A stretch of 64,000 nucleotides of DNA from the NCBI RefSeq assembly GCF_057098645.1, contig NZ_CM169472.1. One strand, written 5' to 3'. Shown piece by piece: positions 18,001-24,000 of the stretch; position 1 is the stretch's first letter, and the number at the start of each line of letters is the position of its first letter. Made by a program: the position numbers.

Positions 18001-21000
18001 AAATGGTACTCATCACCAGCGACAGCGCTGATATCAATCTGCGCTGGGAGATTGGTTTGCGTATTGACTTCGGTATACATATCCAGCGGCGCATTTTGTG
18101 AAAAGCGCAGATTATTTTCCTGGAAAGTACTGTAAATGCCTTTGCTTAAGGCTTCAGCGTCGTTACCTCCCGTCCATATCTGTTGCCCTTTACTGGCAAC
18201 AATAGTTGCGGTGCCGGTATCCTGACAGTTGGGTAATACCCCTTTTGCTGAGACTTCAGCATTACGTAATAACTGCAACGCAACGTATTTATCATTACTA
18301 CTGGCCTGCGGATCGTTAAGAATGCTGGCGACCTGTTGCAAATGAGCGGAACGTAAGAAAAAAGAGGCTTCATAAAATGCCTGCCGGGCAAGCAGCGTTA
18401 ATGCTTCAGGAGCGATTTTTATCACTTCTTCGCCGTCTAATTCCGTTACTGTAATATGTTGATCGCTAATTAATGTATATTCCGTACCGTCTTTATTTTG
18501 TAGAAACGGTTCTTGCCAGATAAATGGTTTGGACATATTTCACTTTTCACCTTAAACGTTAGTGTTACTTAATTGCCGTCTAACTTCATGATCCGGCTTA
18601 TAAAAATGCGTAGTCATTGGCTTCTGATTGCTTAAGATCCCCCTCAGGGCAGAGCAACGTTCGATTCATTGGGTTTTAATGCTTTACCCCGACAGCCCTC
18701 GCCGAAATGTTCGCCTTCCCACCGACTCACCATCGCAGCGCCCATTGCGTTGCTCATGACGTTTGTCGCGGAACGCCCCATATCAAGGAACGGATCAACG
18801 CCCATCAGCAAGATCAGCCCCGCTTCCGGAATATTGAACTGGTTGAGCGTGGCGGCGATAACCACCATTGAGGCGCGTGGTACGCCAGCCATTCCTTTCG
18901 AGGTCAACATCAGGATCAACAGCATGGTGATTTGCTCACCGATGGATAAATGGATATTGCAGGCCTGGGCGATGAAAACTGTGGCGAAGGAGCAGTAGGC
19001 CATTGATCCAACGAGATTAAATGAATAGCCAATGGGTAAGACAAAGCTGGCAATTTTGGGGGAAACGCCAAATTGCTCCAGTTTTTCAAGCGTTCCCGGA
19101 AAAGCCGCTTCAGAACTGGATGTGGTAAATGCCAGCAGGGCGGGTTCCGAAAGGGCGCGGGTCAGGCGTCTGATGCAGGGGCCGACATAAACGATGGCCA
19201 GCCCGATAAGCAGCACCCAAAGTAACAACATGGTGAAATAAAATTCACCCATAAAGATCCCGGCGCTCACCATAACTGCCAGTCCTCGTTCAGCAATCAA
19301 TGCTGAAATAGCGGCGAATACGGTCAGGGGAGCGAAGAGCATGACGTAGCCAGTGAGCTTTAACATGGCATGTGCCAGCGAATCTAAGGCGTGAACGATG
19401 GCGCTGCCTTTCTCGCCAATCGCCGTCAGGCTACAGCCGAGGAAAATTGAGAACACCACGATTTGCAAAATTTCATTGTGCGCCATGGCATCGACAATGC
19501 TGGTGGGGAAAGCATGCGAAATAAATACTTTTAGCGTAAAGGGTTCTGACGCGACCACTCCTGTGGTTTCGGCACCGTGTGCAACAAAATTAATTCCTGT
19601 GCCTGGTATGAAGAAATTTACCGTTATCAAGCCTAAGGCAATTGACAGCAATGAGGCGCAAATAAATAAAAAGAGTGTTTTAGAAAAAATACGACCAAGG
19701 GCTTTGGCATCGCCCATTTTAGCAATACCTACCACCAGGGTAGAGACCACTAACGGAGCGATAATCATTTTTATCAGTCGTAAGAAAATCGTCGTGAATA
19801 TCGATATTTCTTGCGCATAGAGTTTTGCTGTTTCCGGTGAAGCAGTGTTATTGAGCACTACGCCGATAATCATTCCAAGTACCAGCGCCAAAAGAATCAT
19901 CGTGGTTAAACTTATTTTCTTCATTTTTTCCTCCATCAGGTGCACGGCGATAAATCAGAATCAGGAGAAGTAGATGCCTGAATAGAGATTCAGGCATCTA
20001 CCTGCTATTACAACCTTACAAATAGCTGAAGTGTTGAACTGCAATAAGTGACGGGATGTCAGTTGGCTAAAATTATTCGGATTTTTACAAATCGAAACTC
20101 ATATTTAATAAAGGTGCATGTTGCTGTGCACCATAGACATCATTGTCACCTACATTCCCGGAGATAATATCTCGTGGCATGACGATTTTTACTGCGTTAG
20201 AAGGATCAAACCAGACAATACGATGAATAAAGTCAGGTTCAACATGATATAAGCGCGCAATCAGTTCTGGGGTTAATTGCCCTGATGATTTAACTCGCTC
20301 ATAGTTTTCTTTCGTTTTAAATAAAATATCTAAAACCAGTTCGTAAGGTCCGGCATTTTTCGAACGAATGACTTGCGCCAGTGAGACAATTGACTGTTTC
20401 ATGCCTGAACTCCTTCTGGCGTCACCTGTTCAATATGGAAATCAAAACGCAGAGCGTCGTTGGCTTCAATCAGGTGATATATGGAAAATTCGTATACCGG
20501 CCCGCCCTGGATATCAGAAGGGGAGAACGGGAACGCCAGGTTGCCTGCGGTAGCGATGCGGTTTTCATAGCCGTAGTGCAGCATGGTAGAGCGCACCAGC
20601 GAGCAAACGCTATTGGCAATTTCCTGGGTCGGTGCAACTACATCAAGGACAATCCCCAGCTCATGCCCGGCAGTTTGCATCGGTTCATGGTCGCCCATCA
20701 CCCCGTTTTTGCCGTACAGGTGGAAATTGATGCGAATGCTGTCATCGTCGAGCGACAGGTTACGCGAAACGCTGGTTTTGACTTCATCGATGATTTTATC
20801 GATCCCAGCGATCATGATCGGGTCGCGCGTTCCGGCGATGGTCAGACAGCGGAAGCCCACCCGTCGCGCACCTTCCAGTTTCAGGGCATACGGCGTTTCT
20901 TCATGCTTAGAACCGCTGACGTACACTTCGCCGTCATTGACCGCTTTAAATGTGCAGCCTTTCAGGTTCAACACGCCGCCAGGTCCTGGCAGAAAGTAGG

Positions 21001-24000
21001 GATCGGATTTCTCATACAGTGTGTGTGCAGCTGCTGACGTTTCGGTAAATTTACGCTTCGGATTAAATGTCTTCAGCGTAAAGCCGTTGTCATCAATGAT
21101 GCCCATCGCACAGTCAGAGCCTGAGCCGGGCGTTGCGGCGATTGCTGCGCATTCAAGGATTTTCCCACAATGCAGCGCCAGACCTTCATCAAAGCCTTGC
21201 ATGATCGGGAGCGCAGCAAAGCAGGCCGGGTCGTAAGCGCGCCCGCCCAGCACCACTTGCGCGCGTTCTTTCAGCGCCCGCTGGAAGGGTTCGATGCCCA
21301 TTTGCGCGACGATATACGTACTTTCGTCAATCGCGTCGTGGGTTAACGGCGGGACAAAATCCAGCGCCGTGATTTTGCCGTTATCCAGCGCCTGGTGGAC
21401 GATGGCTTTGTCAACGTCTGCCGGGATCAACGCCATCGAGAACGAGAGGTGCTCTTCCTGGGCAATCTCATGAATTATTTCTCGGCACCACTCCAGGTGT
21501 GGTGCGGCACCAGAACCGCCAGCCGTTCCGATCACCACCGGTATATTATTTTGCACGCCTGCGGTGATCATATAGCGCAGATCGCGCTTGACCCCTGCGC
21601 GATCGGTAAACGGTTTGCCTGCCCCGAGGTAGTGGGGGCCTGGATCGGAAGAGCCTGCATCAACGGCGATCAGATCGGGCGATTCTGCCATCGCTTTGCG
21701 GAAGCTCTCTTCCGGGAATTCATACCCGAGGATTGCCGTTGGCGATAAGACTTTAAAAGAACGAGCCATTTGTTAATCCTTAGCCTGCAACAGCGCGATA
21801 GTACGATTCATTTCGTTGAAGACAATATCGAGGCCTTCGTCAAAGCCCATCCCTGGTTTTACCAGCATACGCATAGGGCGAGCGGCAAGGGCGACGTGGA
21901 CACAGGTGCGGGCACTGACATCAGTTTCATTGCAGGTGCCGCCCTGGTACGCTTCCATGCTGTGGCTGTTGCAGTAAAGAACCGCATCGACGATGTTGTG
22001 AATACTGCCCAGATCCGGGGTTTTGATTTGCACCATGTGACAACTGGCAGCATCAGTGAAATCAACAATATCCTGGTAGGTGTTACACCATTCATCGGCC
22101 ACAATTTTCACGCCGGAACCGAGGCGCGTCAGCTCTTTGGTAATCGCGGTCAGCAGGCGAATTTGATCGGGCTTGTTACCGGCATCGACCGGCCCTTCGA
22201 TGTAGAGCGGCAGGCCTTGCGCTTCTTTTTCCAGGCTGGCGATGTATTGCGCACAGCGAAGCGGATCCATATCGAAGATCAGACCGATAGTGCCGTATAC
22301 ATCGATGTGCAGGGTTGGGTGGTAGCGTGCGCTGGTGCGCTTGCTCAGAATGCGATCCGACAACCAGCGGACATATTCGCGCAGTTTTTCACCTTTAAAG
22401 CCCAGCTTCTCTTCGACGTTATTAATCAGCGCATGGGGCAGCACGTCGATGCCTTTAAGGATCATCTTATCGACGGCGATATATCGATCGTCGCCGCTCT
22501 GACCAAATAATGGAATGGATTCCGCCACGCGTGGCAACTGCCATTCATCACAGACCACTTCAGTTTTCAGACGGCCGGTTGCCAGCGCGGTAGCATCAAG
22601 CAGCGCCTGTGATAATCCGTAGCGCACGGCGGTATGCAGCAAGTTGCCGTCAATACGCAATTTGTCGAAGAAACGGGCATTCGGCAGGAAAGCATCCACA
22701 TCGCGGCCTACCAGTAATGGCTTGATATGGTCGTTGAGGAACGGAATAAAGTGCTCTGCGAGGAACAGTGGATCGCGACCGCCGCCCCGGAATACTGTAC
22801 GGCAGTACAGTCACCTACGGCGACCGCGCCGTTTTCCAGAATCAACTGTACCGATACGCACTCCCCGGCCTGACGAACGGCGTTAAACCCCTGTGTTACC
22901 GGCTCCCCGGTATAAAAAAAGCCGTCATGACCCGCTCCGTTTTTTATCGCCTGCTGGTCATCGAAATAGAATGAGGAGTAGCCAGCGGTGAACAGAGCCT
23001 GTTTTATTTTCATTATGGTCTTCCTATTAATTTACTGTGGGATACAGCATTGATGTCATCTACAACCATCTGGAATGTCGGTTGGCGTCCTTCACAGCGT
23101 GCGCGTTCTGCAACGTAATCGTGGTGGAGGTCGAGAATATCTTTTGGCAATGGAACGGCTCCGGCTTCCAGTACGCGTATCGCGCCGGTGTTGTCACGGA
23201 CCGGAAGAATTTTGCCCGCGTTGCAGGCGGCTGGCGCAAACGGCACATCCAGTACGCCCGCTTCAAATGCCAGCACCGTTCCGCGCGCAATATCACCATT
23301 ACCCAGTTCGAACACTTTATTCAGTACTGCGCGAACCTCGCTCTTAATCAGTTCAATTTCCAGTTCAACCGCAGGGCACGGCGGGAATTTCTGCTCATTG
23401 ACCATGTTGAGCATCTGGCGGGAGGCTTTCAGCCCCTGAATGTTGGCAGCGGCAGTCGGGATGCCCCAGGCTTCGTGCGGACTTTTGGTGATGACTTTGG
23501 TGGCACCAGACATCCCCGCGACGGCTGCGCCCCAGGAGATAATAGCGAACGCTTTCGATTCGTCTTCCGGAAAGCCGCCCATCCACTGGTGAAACACGGT
23601 ACTCAATTCATAGTCGGTATAGCCATAGCTCTGAAAGTATTCGTGTGCAAGTTCACGCAGAGACTGGATCGCCGCAACATCCTGCGTCAGGCTGCCGACC
23701 TGGCCATAACCAACGGTGATAGATTTCACACCCTGTTCCAGTGCCAGCAAGCCTTCGATTATCGCGATAGAGTGCGAGATAAACGGCGGGATCAGCGTAC
23801 CCGTTAGTGGGCCAAACGGTTCGCGGTTGATGCGGATCCCGTGTTCTTCATACATCCCCATTAAACGGTCGCAGTACTGCCAGTCGCGGATCGATTTTTC
23901 CAGCGTTACGCGTTTGGCATACGGAATGTTGTAGGAAATGCCACCGCCTTCATAACTGGTAAAGCCGCTGGCCATTGAGATTTCAGCCAGCAGACGCGCA

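What the first reader, a model, noticed from the sequence alone, without database searches (positions are those of the whole stretch)
20085..21769. Two conserved genes of unknown function embedded in the methylaspartate operon; candidates for the missing or an auxiliary pathway step
A 456-aa protein and a 105-aa protein with overlapping stop/start sit between the methylaspartase gene and the transporter gene, inside an otherwise functionally coherent operon. I recognise no catalytic motif in either; they may belong to the DUF1446 (AtuA-like) / DUF4387 families, but that is from memory. Because the island lacks citramalate lyase, this pair is a reasonable candidate for an undescribed activity on citramalate/mesaconate, or for a mutase- or lyase-associated accessory role.
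Basis: inference. Interest (0 to 1): 0.6.

Follow-up and report, generated by a model that had tools for sequence, protein, structure and literature searches.

The report
Two-subunit citramalate lyase CmlAB genes

Summary
A 456-aa ORF (21769..20399, minus strand) and a 105-aa ORF (20402..20085) overlap by ATGA. They sit between the methylaspartase gene and a GltP-like transporter gene in an E. coli O145-type glutamate-fermentation island. Pfam places them in AtuA (formerly DUF1446) and DUF4387.

They are no longer of unknown function. They are 92% and 85% identical to chains A and B of PDB 9ERQ and 9EVF, deposited as "Citramalate lyase, subunit A (cmlA) / subunit B (cmlB)". These were solved with AMPPNP + citramalate and with ADP + pyruvate, and released in October 2025. 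A 2026 preprint uses the Raoultella cmlAB genes in vivo to convert citramalate to pyruvate and acetate.

My scan of one genome per species supports the role:
- mal lies directly upstream of cmlA in 65 of 72 informative loci.
- cmlB lies directly downstream in 77 of 77.
- No CitCDEFXG homologue occurs nearby in any of the 80 loci.

Annotation resources still lag behind.

In this particular strain the pathway is decaying. mal and glmL are frameshifted, and CmlA carries G17E at a glycine conserved in 79 of 79 species.

One side lead came up: an uncharacterised TsaE-like/AlaX-like gene follows cmlB outside the Enterobacterales.

The parts
20399..21769 (-). cmlA: large subunit of citramalate lyase (456 aa, AtuA/PF07287 family). 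This allele carries G17E.
20085..20402 (-). cmlB: small subunit of citramalate lyase (105 aa, DUF4387/PF14330).
   Evidence: ORF. Pfam DUF4387, E 2.9e-39. 84.6% identical to PDB 9ERQ chain B, 'Citramalate lyase, subunit B (cmlB)'. Directly downstream of cmlA in 77 of 77 informative loci. Fused to the C-terminus of CmlA-like proteins in other family members. All 22 positions conserved in at least 97% of species are retained.
20399..20402 (-). ATGA stop/start overlap of cmlA and cmlB, implying translational coupling.
   Evidence: Read directly from the sequence. SD AAGGAG lies at 20415..20410.
21773..23013 (-). mal: methylaspartate ammonia-lyase, a pseudogene here (1-bp deletion near 22783 relative to O157:H7).
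   Evidence: Split into ORFs of 101 aa and 308 aa. Annotated 'frameshifted' in the near-identical RM9872 genome. The indel was located. The allele is found in 25 genomes; the 12 listed are all O145 or O145:H28 except one strain with no serotype in its name.
23013..24458 (-). glmE: glutamate (methylaspartate) mutase subunit E.
   Evidence: NCBIfam TIGR01503, E 1.8e-260. RefSeq annotation.
24477..25864 (-). glmL (mutL): mutase reactivase, a pseudogene here (1-bp deletion near 25736).
   Evidence: Annotated 'frameshifted'. Indel located. The allele is exact in only 6 genomes.
25864..26313 (-). glmS: B12-binding subunit S of glutamate mutase.
   Evidence: RefSeq annotation transferred from RM9872 and O157:H7. 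ORF.
18644..19924 (-). GltP/DctA-like dicarboxylate/amino acid:cation symporter, the presumed glutamate importer.
   Evidence: NCBIfam GltP/DctA hits, all below the curated cut-offs. RefSeq annotation. Called GltP by Kronen & Berg 2015.
16884..18536 (-). fumD: class I fumarase/mesaconase (mesaconate to (S)-citramalate), which supplies the CmlAB substrate.
   Evidence: NCBIfam NF011921, 1279 bits against a cut-off of 1060. The O157:H7 orthologue was characterised biochemically in PMC4682846.
16272..16874 (-). cobO: cob(I)alamin adenosyltransferase, the last gene of the operon.
   Evidence: NCBIfam TIGR00708/NF004637, above cut-off. A strong terminator-like hairpin lies at 16268..16242 on the minus strand.
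15333..16238 (+). LysR-family regulator flanking the island, convergent with cobO. It is a candidate regulator of the operon.
   Evidence: NCBIfam LysR-type hits. Kronen & Berg list 'LTTR' as part of the enterobacterial cluster.

Best explanation
The two genes encode the large (CmlA) and small (CmlB) subunits of the CoA- and ACP-independent citramalate lyase CmlAB. The enzyme cleaves (S)-citramalate, made from glutamate by glutamate mutase, methylaspartase and the mesaconase FumD, into pyruvate and a C2 unit that ends up as acetate. It thereby closes the methylaspartate pathway, which in clostridia uses a CitDEF-type lyase. The two subunits are made by translationally coupled genes and act as one enzyme; in other family members they form a single polypeptide. 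The solved orthologue binds an ATP analogue together with citramalate, and ADP together with pyruvate. From this I infer, without having shown it, that ATP takes part in catalysis. The most plausible route is phosphorylation of the C4 carboxylate, so that the retro-aldol/retro-Claisen cleavage releases an acetyl phosphate-type enolate rather than an unactivated acetate carbanion. The acetyl phosphate would then be converted to acetate with ATP regained. In this particular O145-type strain the genes are intact, but the pathway is probably dead: mal and glmL are frameshifted, and CmlA carries G17E at a universally conserved glycine.

For: Ligands. The entry titles are 'AMPPNP - citramalate complex' and 'ADP - pyruvate complex'.

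In vivo function of an orthologue. R. planticola cmlAB lets an acetyl-CoA auxotroph grow on mesaconate. Curing the plasmid abolishes growth, and labelling confirms the carbon flow. The authors describe direct cleavage to pyruvate and acetate (preprint 10.64898/2026.01.16.699985).

Context. In 80 species-level loci from many phyla, mal lies directly upstream in 65 of 72, glmE lies upstream in 61 of 68, and cmlB lies directly downstream in 77 of 77. No CitC/D/E/F/X/G homologue occurs within 10 kb in any locus. By contrast, clostridial clusters carry CitDEF (PMC4682846).

Prior gap. Kronen & Berg 2015 found no citramalate lyase activity from citrate lyase, isocitrate lyase or methylisocitrate lyase in O157:H7. 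They noted the DUF1446 gene downstream of mal.

Subunit partnership. There is an ATGA overlap, and natural fusions of about 610-620 aa exist with a CmlA-like N-terminus (37-40% identity) and a DUF4387 C-terminus.

Decay in this strain.
Against: No enzyme assay of the E. coli proteins exists in anything I could read. I found no primary paper for 9ERQ/9EVF in the searchable library. The functional name therefore rests on the depositors' titles and on one user preprint.

The role of the nucleotide is inferred from ligand names only. The preprint speaks of acetate, not acetyl phosphate, as the product. It also treats high acetate as thermodynamically unfavourable for cleavage, and it finds Acs up-regulated. 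These points fit a plain lyase with a nucleotide effector at least as well.

Kronen & Berg could not find conditions under which O157:H7 expresses the cluster.

Five loci (Shewanella x3, Accumulibacter, Desulfospira) have cmlAB without mal or glm nearby. The enzyme is therefore not strictly tied to glutamate mutase.

G17E may inactivate this particular allele.
Confidence: 0.85

Rival explanations
1. CmlAB is a plain, cofactor-free citramalate lyase giving pyruvate + acetate. The bound adenine nucleotide would be only an allosteric or structural ligand and would not take part in bond cleavage.
For: [quoted passage not shown] It worries that high acetate disfavours the reaction, and it finds that Acs (acetate activation) must be up-regulated for growth. 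Lyases of the isocitrate lyase superfamily show that cleavage to a free carboxylic acid is chemically possible (established knowledge).
Against: The structures were obtained with a non-hydrolysable ATP analogue plus the substrate, and with ADP plus the product. That is the usual way to trap the Michaelis and product complexes of an ATP-consuming enzyme. The fold has no relation to the isocitrate lyase/PEP mutase superfamily or to any other known lyase: no PDB match beyond 9ERQ/9EVF reaches E 0.001 or better.
Confidence: 0.35
2. The pair is an accessory factor of glutamate mutase or methylaspartase (a chaperone, activase or stabiliser) rather than an enzyme of its own.
For: The pair sits tightly next to mal in 65 of 72 loci. 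Some databases label the CmlA homologue '3-methylaspartate ammonia-lyase'.
Against: The crystal structures contain citramalate and pyruvate, not mutase or lyase partners. cmlAB alone confers citramalate cleavage in E. coli K-12-derived strains, which lack glm and mal. cmlAB occurs without glm or mal in five loci. The mutase already has its reactivase, GlmL.
Confidence: 0.03
3. [quoted passage not shown] It would have been recruited by chance next to the glutamate genes.
For: There is a Pfam AtuA hit, and RefSeq names it 'acyclic terpene utilization AtuA family protein'. AtuA is tentatively assigned this acetate-releasing lyase role (PMC4847356).
Against: The Pfam score is weak (64 bits) for a full-length family member. 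No atu genes (geranyl-CoA carboxylase, hydratase, acyl-CoA dehydrogenase) occur in the window or in the 80 loci. Those loci carry glmS-glmL-glmE-mal instead. The fused AtuA-like relatives are only 37-40% identical. The solved orthologue binds citramalate, a free acid.
Confidence: 0.02
4. In this strain the two ORFs are intact-looking remnants of a decaying operon and make no functional enzyme. This concerns the window's copy only, not the family.
For: mal and glmL, which act upstream of CmlAB in the pathway, each carry a 1-bp deletion. CmlA has G17E in the invariant N-terminal motif LSPTAILGYGFP, where Gly occurs in 79 of 79 species and in O157:H7. The G17E and mal alleles are each exact in only about 25 genomes; the mal-allele genomes listed are O145 or O145:H28.
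Against: Both ORFs are full length with good ribosome-binding sites. CmlB is identical to that of O157:H7. FumA, FumB and FumD can still make citramalate from external mesaconate, so a residual role is possible. The effect of G17E has not been tested.
Confidence: 0.5

Closest known systems
CmlAB citramalate lyase of Klebsiella/Raoultella (PDB 9ERQ, 9EVF; used as 'Cml' from Raoultella planticola in bioRxiv 10.64898/2026.01.16.699985)
   Same: The same two-subunit architecture (456 + 105 aa). Identities are 92% and 85%. The genes occupy the same place in the same enterobacterial glmS-glmL-glmE-mal-cmlA-cmlB-gltP-fumD-cobO cluster. PDB chain A is 100% identical to the Klebsiella michiganensis locus L003.
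   Different: There are 36 substitutions in CmlA, including G17E at a universally conserved glycine. In this strain the upstream genes mal and glmL are pseudogenes.
Classical citramalate lyase / citrate lyase complex (CitD-CitE-CitF with CitC, CitX, CitG; EC 4.1.3.22 / 4.1.3.6) of clostridial glutamate fermentation
   Same: The same net reaction and the same pathway position: (S)-citramalate to pyruvate + acetate, after the mesaconase step (PMC4682846).
   Different: There is no sequence or fold relationship. The classical enzyme has three subunits, an ACP with a phosphoribosyl-dephospho-CoA prosthetic group, an acetyl-thioester cycle, and dedicated activation genes. None of these genes lies near cmlAB in 80 loci. 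CmlAB binds an adenine nucleotide instead. This is a non-orthologous displacement.
AtuA of the Pseudomonas/Thauera acyclic terpene utilisation pathway (Pfam PF07287 plus C-terminal DUF4387, about 600 aa)
   Same: The same Pfam families. [quoted passage not shown]
   Different: AtuA is a single fused polypeptide (615 aa in Thauera) that sits in an atu cluster and acts on a CoA ester. Its activity has never been shown directly, and another review assigns that step to LiuE (PMC4097962). The fused relatives I could compare are only 37-40% identical to CmlA.
(S)-citramalyl-CoA lyase (Ccl, HpcH/CitE-like) with a citramalate CoA-transferase
   Same: An alternative way to split citramalate into pyruvate and a C2 unit. 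It is used in itaconate and mesaconate degradation and in the 3-hydroxypropionate bi-cycle.
   Different: It requires prior CoA activation and is unrelated in sequence. Most enterobacteria lack it, according to Kronen & Berg.
ATP-citrate lyase
   Same: Inference only: a nucleotide-assisted cleavage of a 3-hydroxy acid via an acyl phosphate would resemble the citryl-phosphate step.
   Different: ATP-citrate lyase is unrelated in fold and uses CoA and a phospho-histidine. No similarity was detected.

Membership tests
CmlAB citramalate lyase (PDB 9ERQ/9EVF) | Large subunit homologous over its full length to CmlA | tested here: met
CmlAB citramalate lyase (PDB 9ERQ/9EVF) | Small DUF4387 subunit homologous to CmlB, encoded immediately downstream | tested here: met
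   E 5.2e-57, 84.6% identity. ATGA overlap. cmlB lies directly downstream of cmlA in 77 of 77 loci.
CmlAB citramalate lyase (PDB 9ERQ/9EVF) | Gene context in the methylaspartate pathway (glmSLE-mal upstream, mesaconase nearby, no CitDEF) | tested here: met
   The window's gene order is the same as in the Klebsiella locus L003, whose CmlA is 100% identical to the PDB chain. No cit genes lie nearby.
CmlAB citramalate lyase (PDB 9ERQ/9EVF) | Retention of residues conserved across the family, used as a proxy for the ligand-binding residues | tested here: inconclusive
   129 of 130 CmlA positions conserved in at least 97% of species are kept, and all 22 of CmlB. The exception is G17E. I could not read the coordinates of 9ERQ to see whether residue 17 touches the ligands.
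CmlAB citramalate lyase (PDB 9ERQ/9EVF) | Catalysis of (S)-citramalate cleavage to pyruvate and acetate or acetyl phosphate | not testable with these tools
   This rests on the depositors' titles and on the in vivo data of preprint 10.64898/2026.01.16.699985 for the Raoultella orthologue.
CitDEF-type citramalate/citrate lyase | Homology to CitE (beta), CitF (alpha) and CitD (ACP), with CitC/X/G activation genes | tested here: not met
   Pfam finds only AtuA and DUF4387. tblastn of the strain's own CitC/D/E/F/X/G finds nothing in 80 cmlAB loci. The cit locus lies about 100 kb away.
AtuA (acyclic terpene utilisation protein A) | Match to Pfam PF07287 | tested here: met
   E 1.5e-17, 64 bits, residues 63-394. 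This is family-level membership only.
AtuA (acyclic terpene utilisation protein A) | Single polypeptide with a C-terminal DUF4387 domain (about 600 aa) | tested here: not met
   Here the two domains are separate genes. Fused forms exist elsewhere.
AtuA (acyclic terpene utilisation protein A) | Location in an atu cluster with geranyl-CoA carboxylase (AtuC/F), hydratase (AtuE) and the regulator AtuR | tested here: not met
   None of these is annotated in the first 49.9 kb of the window; the 80 related loci were searched only for glm, mal, cml, gltP, fumD, cobO and cit genes, and they carry glm/mal genes.
NCBIfam curated families (release June 2026) | Any curated model matching CmlA or CmlB | tested here: not met
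   No families at E 1e-5 or better for either protein. Annotation pipelines still have no name for them.

The most novel reading that the evidence does not exclude
CmlAB would be the founding member of a new class of ATP-dependent C-C lyases. It would phosphorylate the distal carboxylate of a 3-hydroxy-3-alkyl acid and release acetyl phosphate. By extension, the large AtuA/DUF1446 + DUF4387 family would catalyse the same acyl-phosphate-assisted acetate-release chemistry on other substrates; the family numbers over 6,000 sequence clusters for CmlA relatives, and per the literature it includes Pseudomonas AtuA and fungal and plant members. A further possibility is that outside the Enterobacterales the system needs, or is protected by, the uncharacterised TsaE-like/AlaX-like protein encoded next to cmlB. 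One candidate role for that protein is as a trans-editing factor against mis-acylation of tRNA by 3-methylaspartate.
Probability: 0.35. Interest if true: 0.6.

Novelty: already known. Interest (0 to 1): 0.3.

Why it matters
The fate of citramalate was the open gap in the enterobacterial methylaspartate pathway. Kronen & Berg (2015) tested citrate, isocitrate and methylisocitrate lyase activities and found none that cleaved it. CmlAB closes that gap with an enzyme unrelated to all known lyases, and it needs neither CoA nor an acyl carrier protein. That makes it attractive for synthetic pathways, and it is already used that way.

For this scan the practical value is annotation. About 1,100 complete E. 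coli genomes, and many other genomes, still label these genes 'AtuA family protein' and 'DUF4387 domain-containing protein', and some sources label CmlA relatives '3-methylaspartate ammonia-lyase'. Pfam names CmlB only as a domain of unknown function, and NCBIfam (June 2026) has no model for either protein.

The result also gives a concrete chemical hypothesis for the long-unassigned AtuA proteins. Finally, it shows that the O145 genomes carrying these alleles, those listed being O145 or O145:H28, are losing the pathway that O157:H7 keeps intact.

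Tried and rejected
1. Primary paper. I searched for one on CmlAB using 'DUF4387', 'DUF1446', 'citramalate lyase' + 'CmlA', + 'Raoultella planticola', and 'citramalate lyase' from 2023 onward. Only the user preprint and the 2015 Kronen & Berg paper turned up. Two other candidate papers, one of them from 2025, do not mention the enzyme.

2. NCBIfam gave nothing for either protein.

4. Standalone cmlAB loci. I looked at Shewanella L062 and Accumulibacter L086 for an alternative citramalate source. The neighbours (hrpA, a metalloprotease, fadE, RND efflux genes, rpoBC) are uninformative.

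5. G169R. This looked like a second departure from an invariant glycine in the 18-sequence alignment. It is E. coli-wide, and the position varies in the 80-species set (70 G of 80), so I dropped it.

6. Strain identity. I first took the window to be strain RM9872. It is not identical, because RM9872 has an extra 8-bp insertion in mal.

7. Promoter and terminator scan. No convincing terminator lies between cmlB and the transporter gene. The only strong one follows cobO.

Full report
**Observation**

The window carries, on the minus strand, a 456-aa ORF (21769..20399) and a 105-aa ORF (20402..20085).
- The stop codon of the first overlaps the start codon of the second (ATGA).
- Both have Shine-Dalgarno sequences 7 nt upstream of the ATG.
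- Pfam places them in AtuA (PF07287, formerly DUF1446; E 1.5e-17, residues 63-394) and in DUF4387 (PF14330; E 2.9e-39).

**Where the window comes from**

The DNA is 100% identical over these two genes to E. coli O145 strain RM9872. Over the first 49.9 kb it differs from that genome by only 18 substitutions and two indels. The window is therefore an O145-type E. coli chromosome.

The genes lie in an island inserted between sucABCD and cydAB. On the minus strand the order is:
- glmS, glmL, glmE, mal, the two ORFs, a GltP-like symporter, the class I fumarase/mesaconase fumD, and cobO.
- A LysR-type regulator lies just past cobO, on the plus strand and convergent with it.
- The only strong terminator-like hairpin follows cobO.

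The pair is present in 1125 of 5426 complete E. coli genomes.

**What was known in 2015**

Kronen & Berg (PMC4682846) characterised FumD of O157:H7 as a mesaconase and drew this cluster. [quoted passage not shown] They showed that cells with high citrate lyase, isocitrate lyase or methylcitrate-pathway activities had no citramalate lyase activity.

**What is known now**

A sequence search of the PDB gives near-identical hits. Chain A of 9ERQ/9EVF is named 'Citramalate lyase, subunit A (cmlA)' (E 4.9e-291). Chain B is named 'Citramalate lyase, subunit B (cmlB)' (E 5.2e-57). Identities are 420/456 (92.1%) and 88/104 (84.6%).

My AlphaFold model of the window's large subunit (pLDDT 85.6) gave the following:
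- It superposes on 9evf_A, 'Citramalate lyase - ADP - pyruvate complex', released 2025-10-08, with TM 0.93.

PDB chain A is 100% identical to the CmlA of Klebsiella michiganensis locus L003. That locus has the same gene order as the window.

- Growth of an acetyl-CoA auxotroph on mesaconate depends on the plasmid.
- Isotope labelling confirms carbon flow from mesaconate into acetyl-CoA.

I found no primary biochemical paper in the searchable library. NCBIfam (June 2026) has no model for either protein, and RefSeq still uses the generic names.

**Independent comparative evidence**

I built an alignment of 18 CmlA homologues at 61-89% identity. I used it to scan one genome per species of GTDB and kept the best 80 loci. 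These come from:
- Enterobacterales, Rhodocyclales and Shewanella.
- Riflebacteria, Aminicenantes/Acidobacteriota, Spirochaetes and Lentisphaerae.
- Chloroflexi, Planctomycetes, Myxococcota and several Firmicutes lineages.

tblastn with the O157:H7 operon proteins gave these counts:

| Feature | Loci with the feature | Informative loci |
|---|---|---|
| mal directly upstream of cmlA, same strand | 65 | 72 |
| glmE upstream | 61 | 68 |
| cmlB directly downstream (gap 0-149 nt) | 77 | 77 |

- No homologue of the strain's own CitC, D, E, F, X or G occurs in any of the 80 loci. Clostridial glm-mal clusters do carry CitDEF. This is the pattern expected for non-orthologous displacement of the lyase step.
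- Five loci (three Shewanella, Accumulibacter, Desulfospira) carry cmlAB alone in uninformative surroundings.
- DUF4387 also occurs as the C-terminal domain of proteins of about 610-620 aa. Their N-terminal 440 residues are 37-40% identical to CmlA. This is a Rosetta-stone confirmation that the two subunits work together, and it matches the architecture reported for Thauera AtuA (615 aa; PMC4847356).

**Mechanism: what is shown**

The close orthologue binds citramalate and pyruvate, which identifies the substrate and one product. It binds an adenine nucleotide at the same time. It confers citramalate cleavage in vivo without any CoA-transferase or ACP system.

**Mechanism: what is inferred**

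The pairing of AMPPNP with the substrate, and of ADP with the product, is how one traps an enzyme that turns ATP into ADP. Cleaving citramalate to free acetate requires stabilising an acetate alpha-carbanion. Citrate and citramalate lyases of the CitDEF type avoid this by using a thioester.

I therefore think the most likely mechanism has these steps:
- The C4 carboxylate is phosphorylated to an acyl phosphate.
- A retro-aldol/retro-Claisen cleavage then gives pyruvate and acetyl phosphate.
- The cell, or the enzyme itself, converts the acetyl phosphate to acetate with regeneration of ATP.

**Mechanism: the evidence against**

The preprint speaks only of acetate. It considers high acetate thermodynamically unfavourable, and it finds Acs up-regulated. 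These points equally fit a plain lyase with a nucleotide effector. I rate the ATP-as-co-substrate version at roughly even odds, and I could not inspect the coordinates.

**Candidate catalytic elements**

Candidate catalytic or lid elements are the invariant motifs in or beside two low-confidence loops of the model:
- Residues 43-54, motif DAGSxDPGPxYLGxGK.
- Residues 214-217, motif HCGKILECxxIxxxPGSGxD.
- The glycine-rich GTAGGSGAxPH motif at residues 81-91.
- The invariant RSKN and GAQQHxPL motifs of CmlB.

These are pointers only.

**Relation to AtuA**

The AtuA step tentatively assigned in the terpene pathway is 3-hydroxy-3-isohexenylglutaryl-CoA to a 3-oxoacyl-CoA plus acetate (PMC4847356). 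It is the same formal reaction as citramalate to pyruvate plus acetate. The assignment has never been demonstrated, and another review gives the step to LiuE (PMC4097962).

CmlA belongs to the Pfam family but is not an AtuA orthologue. It is split rather than fused, it lies in a different gene context, and it is only 37-40% identical to the fused forms.

**State of the genes in this window**

Compared with O157:H7, where all genes are intact, this strain shows these changes:
- A 1-bp deletion in mal near 22783, which splits it into ORFs of 101 and 308 aa.
- A 1-bp deletion in glmL near 25736.
- CmlA differs from the O157:H7 protein at two positions, G17E and R104Q. CmlB is identical.
- Gly17 lies in the N-terminal motif LSPTAILGYGFP and is Gly in 79 of 79 aligned species.

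The mal-deletion allele is exact in 25 complete genomes; the 12 listed are O145 or O145:H28, apart from one strain with no serotype in its name. The G17E region is exact in 26 records, and the glmL deletion in 6. The pathway is therefore being lost in this lineage. The window's cmlA may encode a damaged enzyme even though the ORF is intact.

**Side observation**

In non-enterobacterial clusters a third gene follows cmlB, often with overlapping stop and start codons. It encodes a protein of 313-318 aa with a Walker A motif and no Pfam or NCBIfam family.
- It lies directly downstream of cmlB in 39 of 53 informative non-enterobacterial loci, and elsewhere in the locus in 4 more.
- It is absent from all 24 Enterobacterales loci, from the window, and from the five standalone cmlAB loci.
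- More than 2,100 relatives carry only generic names. Its role is unknown. It may serve the mutase, the lyase, or the protection of tRNA charging from 3-methylaspartate.

**Verdict**

- The interpretation, a missing citramalate-cleaving activity, is supported.
- The thing is a close orthologue of an enzyme already solved and named, so the novelty class is 'already known'.
- Remaining interest lies in the lag of annotation, the unsettled role of ATP, the implication for the AtuA family, the lineage-specific decay, and the uncharacterised neighbour gene.

Noticed in passing
window 21773-23013 (mal) and 24477-25864 (glmL): Both genes are frameshifted pseudogenes in this strain, through 1-bp deletions near 22783 and 25736 relative to O157:H7. 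The mal allele is exact in 25 complete genomes (the 12 listed are O145 or O145:H28, apart from one strain with no serotype in its name), and the glmL allele in only 6. The glutamate-fermentation operon is decaying in this lineage, whereas O157:H7 keeps it intact.
   Followed up: yes
window 21719-21721 (codon 17 of cmlA): CmlA carries G17E in the invariant N-terminal motif LSPTAILGYGFP. Gly occurs here in 79 of 79 species representatives, in O157:H7 and in the PDB protein. The allele region is exact in 26 E. coli records. The substitution is possibly inactivating.
   Followed up: partly
L085:11677-12618, L083:11698-12654 and 41 further related loci (not in the window): An uncharacterised gene of about 315 aa follows cmlB in 39 of 53 informative non-enterobacterial loci, and lies elsewhere in the cluster in 4 more. 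It is absent from all 24 Enterobacterales loci. It combines a TsaE/YjeE-like P-loop ATPase domain with a ThrRS/AlaRS-editing (AlaX-like) domain carrying a conserved CxGxRxH motif. It has no Pfam or NCBIfam family, and more than 2,100 relatives carry only generic names. It may be an accessory factor of the mutase or the lyase, or a trans-editing factor.
   Followed up: partly
L030/L086 (Accumulibacter), L062, L076, L080 (Shewanella), L065 (Desulfospira): cmlAB occurs alone, without glm or mal genes within 10 kb, next to unrelated genes (hrpA, a metalloprotease, rpoBC, RND efflux genes). The source of citramalate in these organisms is unknown.
   Followed up: partly
window 26861-27283 and 27364-28308 (minus strand; the region 26001-28000 has 38% GC): Two low-GC ORFs of 140 and 314 aa lie between glmS and cydA. 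They have no NCBIfam match and are annotated 'hypothetical protein' in O145 and O157:H7. The 140-aa ORF is intact here but frameshifted in RM9872. They look like a separately acquired piece of the island.
   Followed up: no
window 22326: Strain RM9872 has an 8-bp insertion (GTGCGCTG) in mal relative to the window, in addition to the shared 1-bp deletion. The window therefore comes from a different, closely related O145 strain.
   Followed up: yes
window 38210-39010 (approximately): There is a cluster of seven tRNA genes (Lys and Val, alternating) after cpoB, as in other E. coli. It gives internal repeat alignments of about 93% identity.
   Followed up: no
database annotations of CmlA homologues (P0002, P0059, P0072): Several sources name CmlA homologues '3-methylaspartate ammonia-lyase'. 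This is an annotation error, already remarked on by Kronen & Berg in 2015, and it persists.
   Followed up: partly
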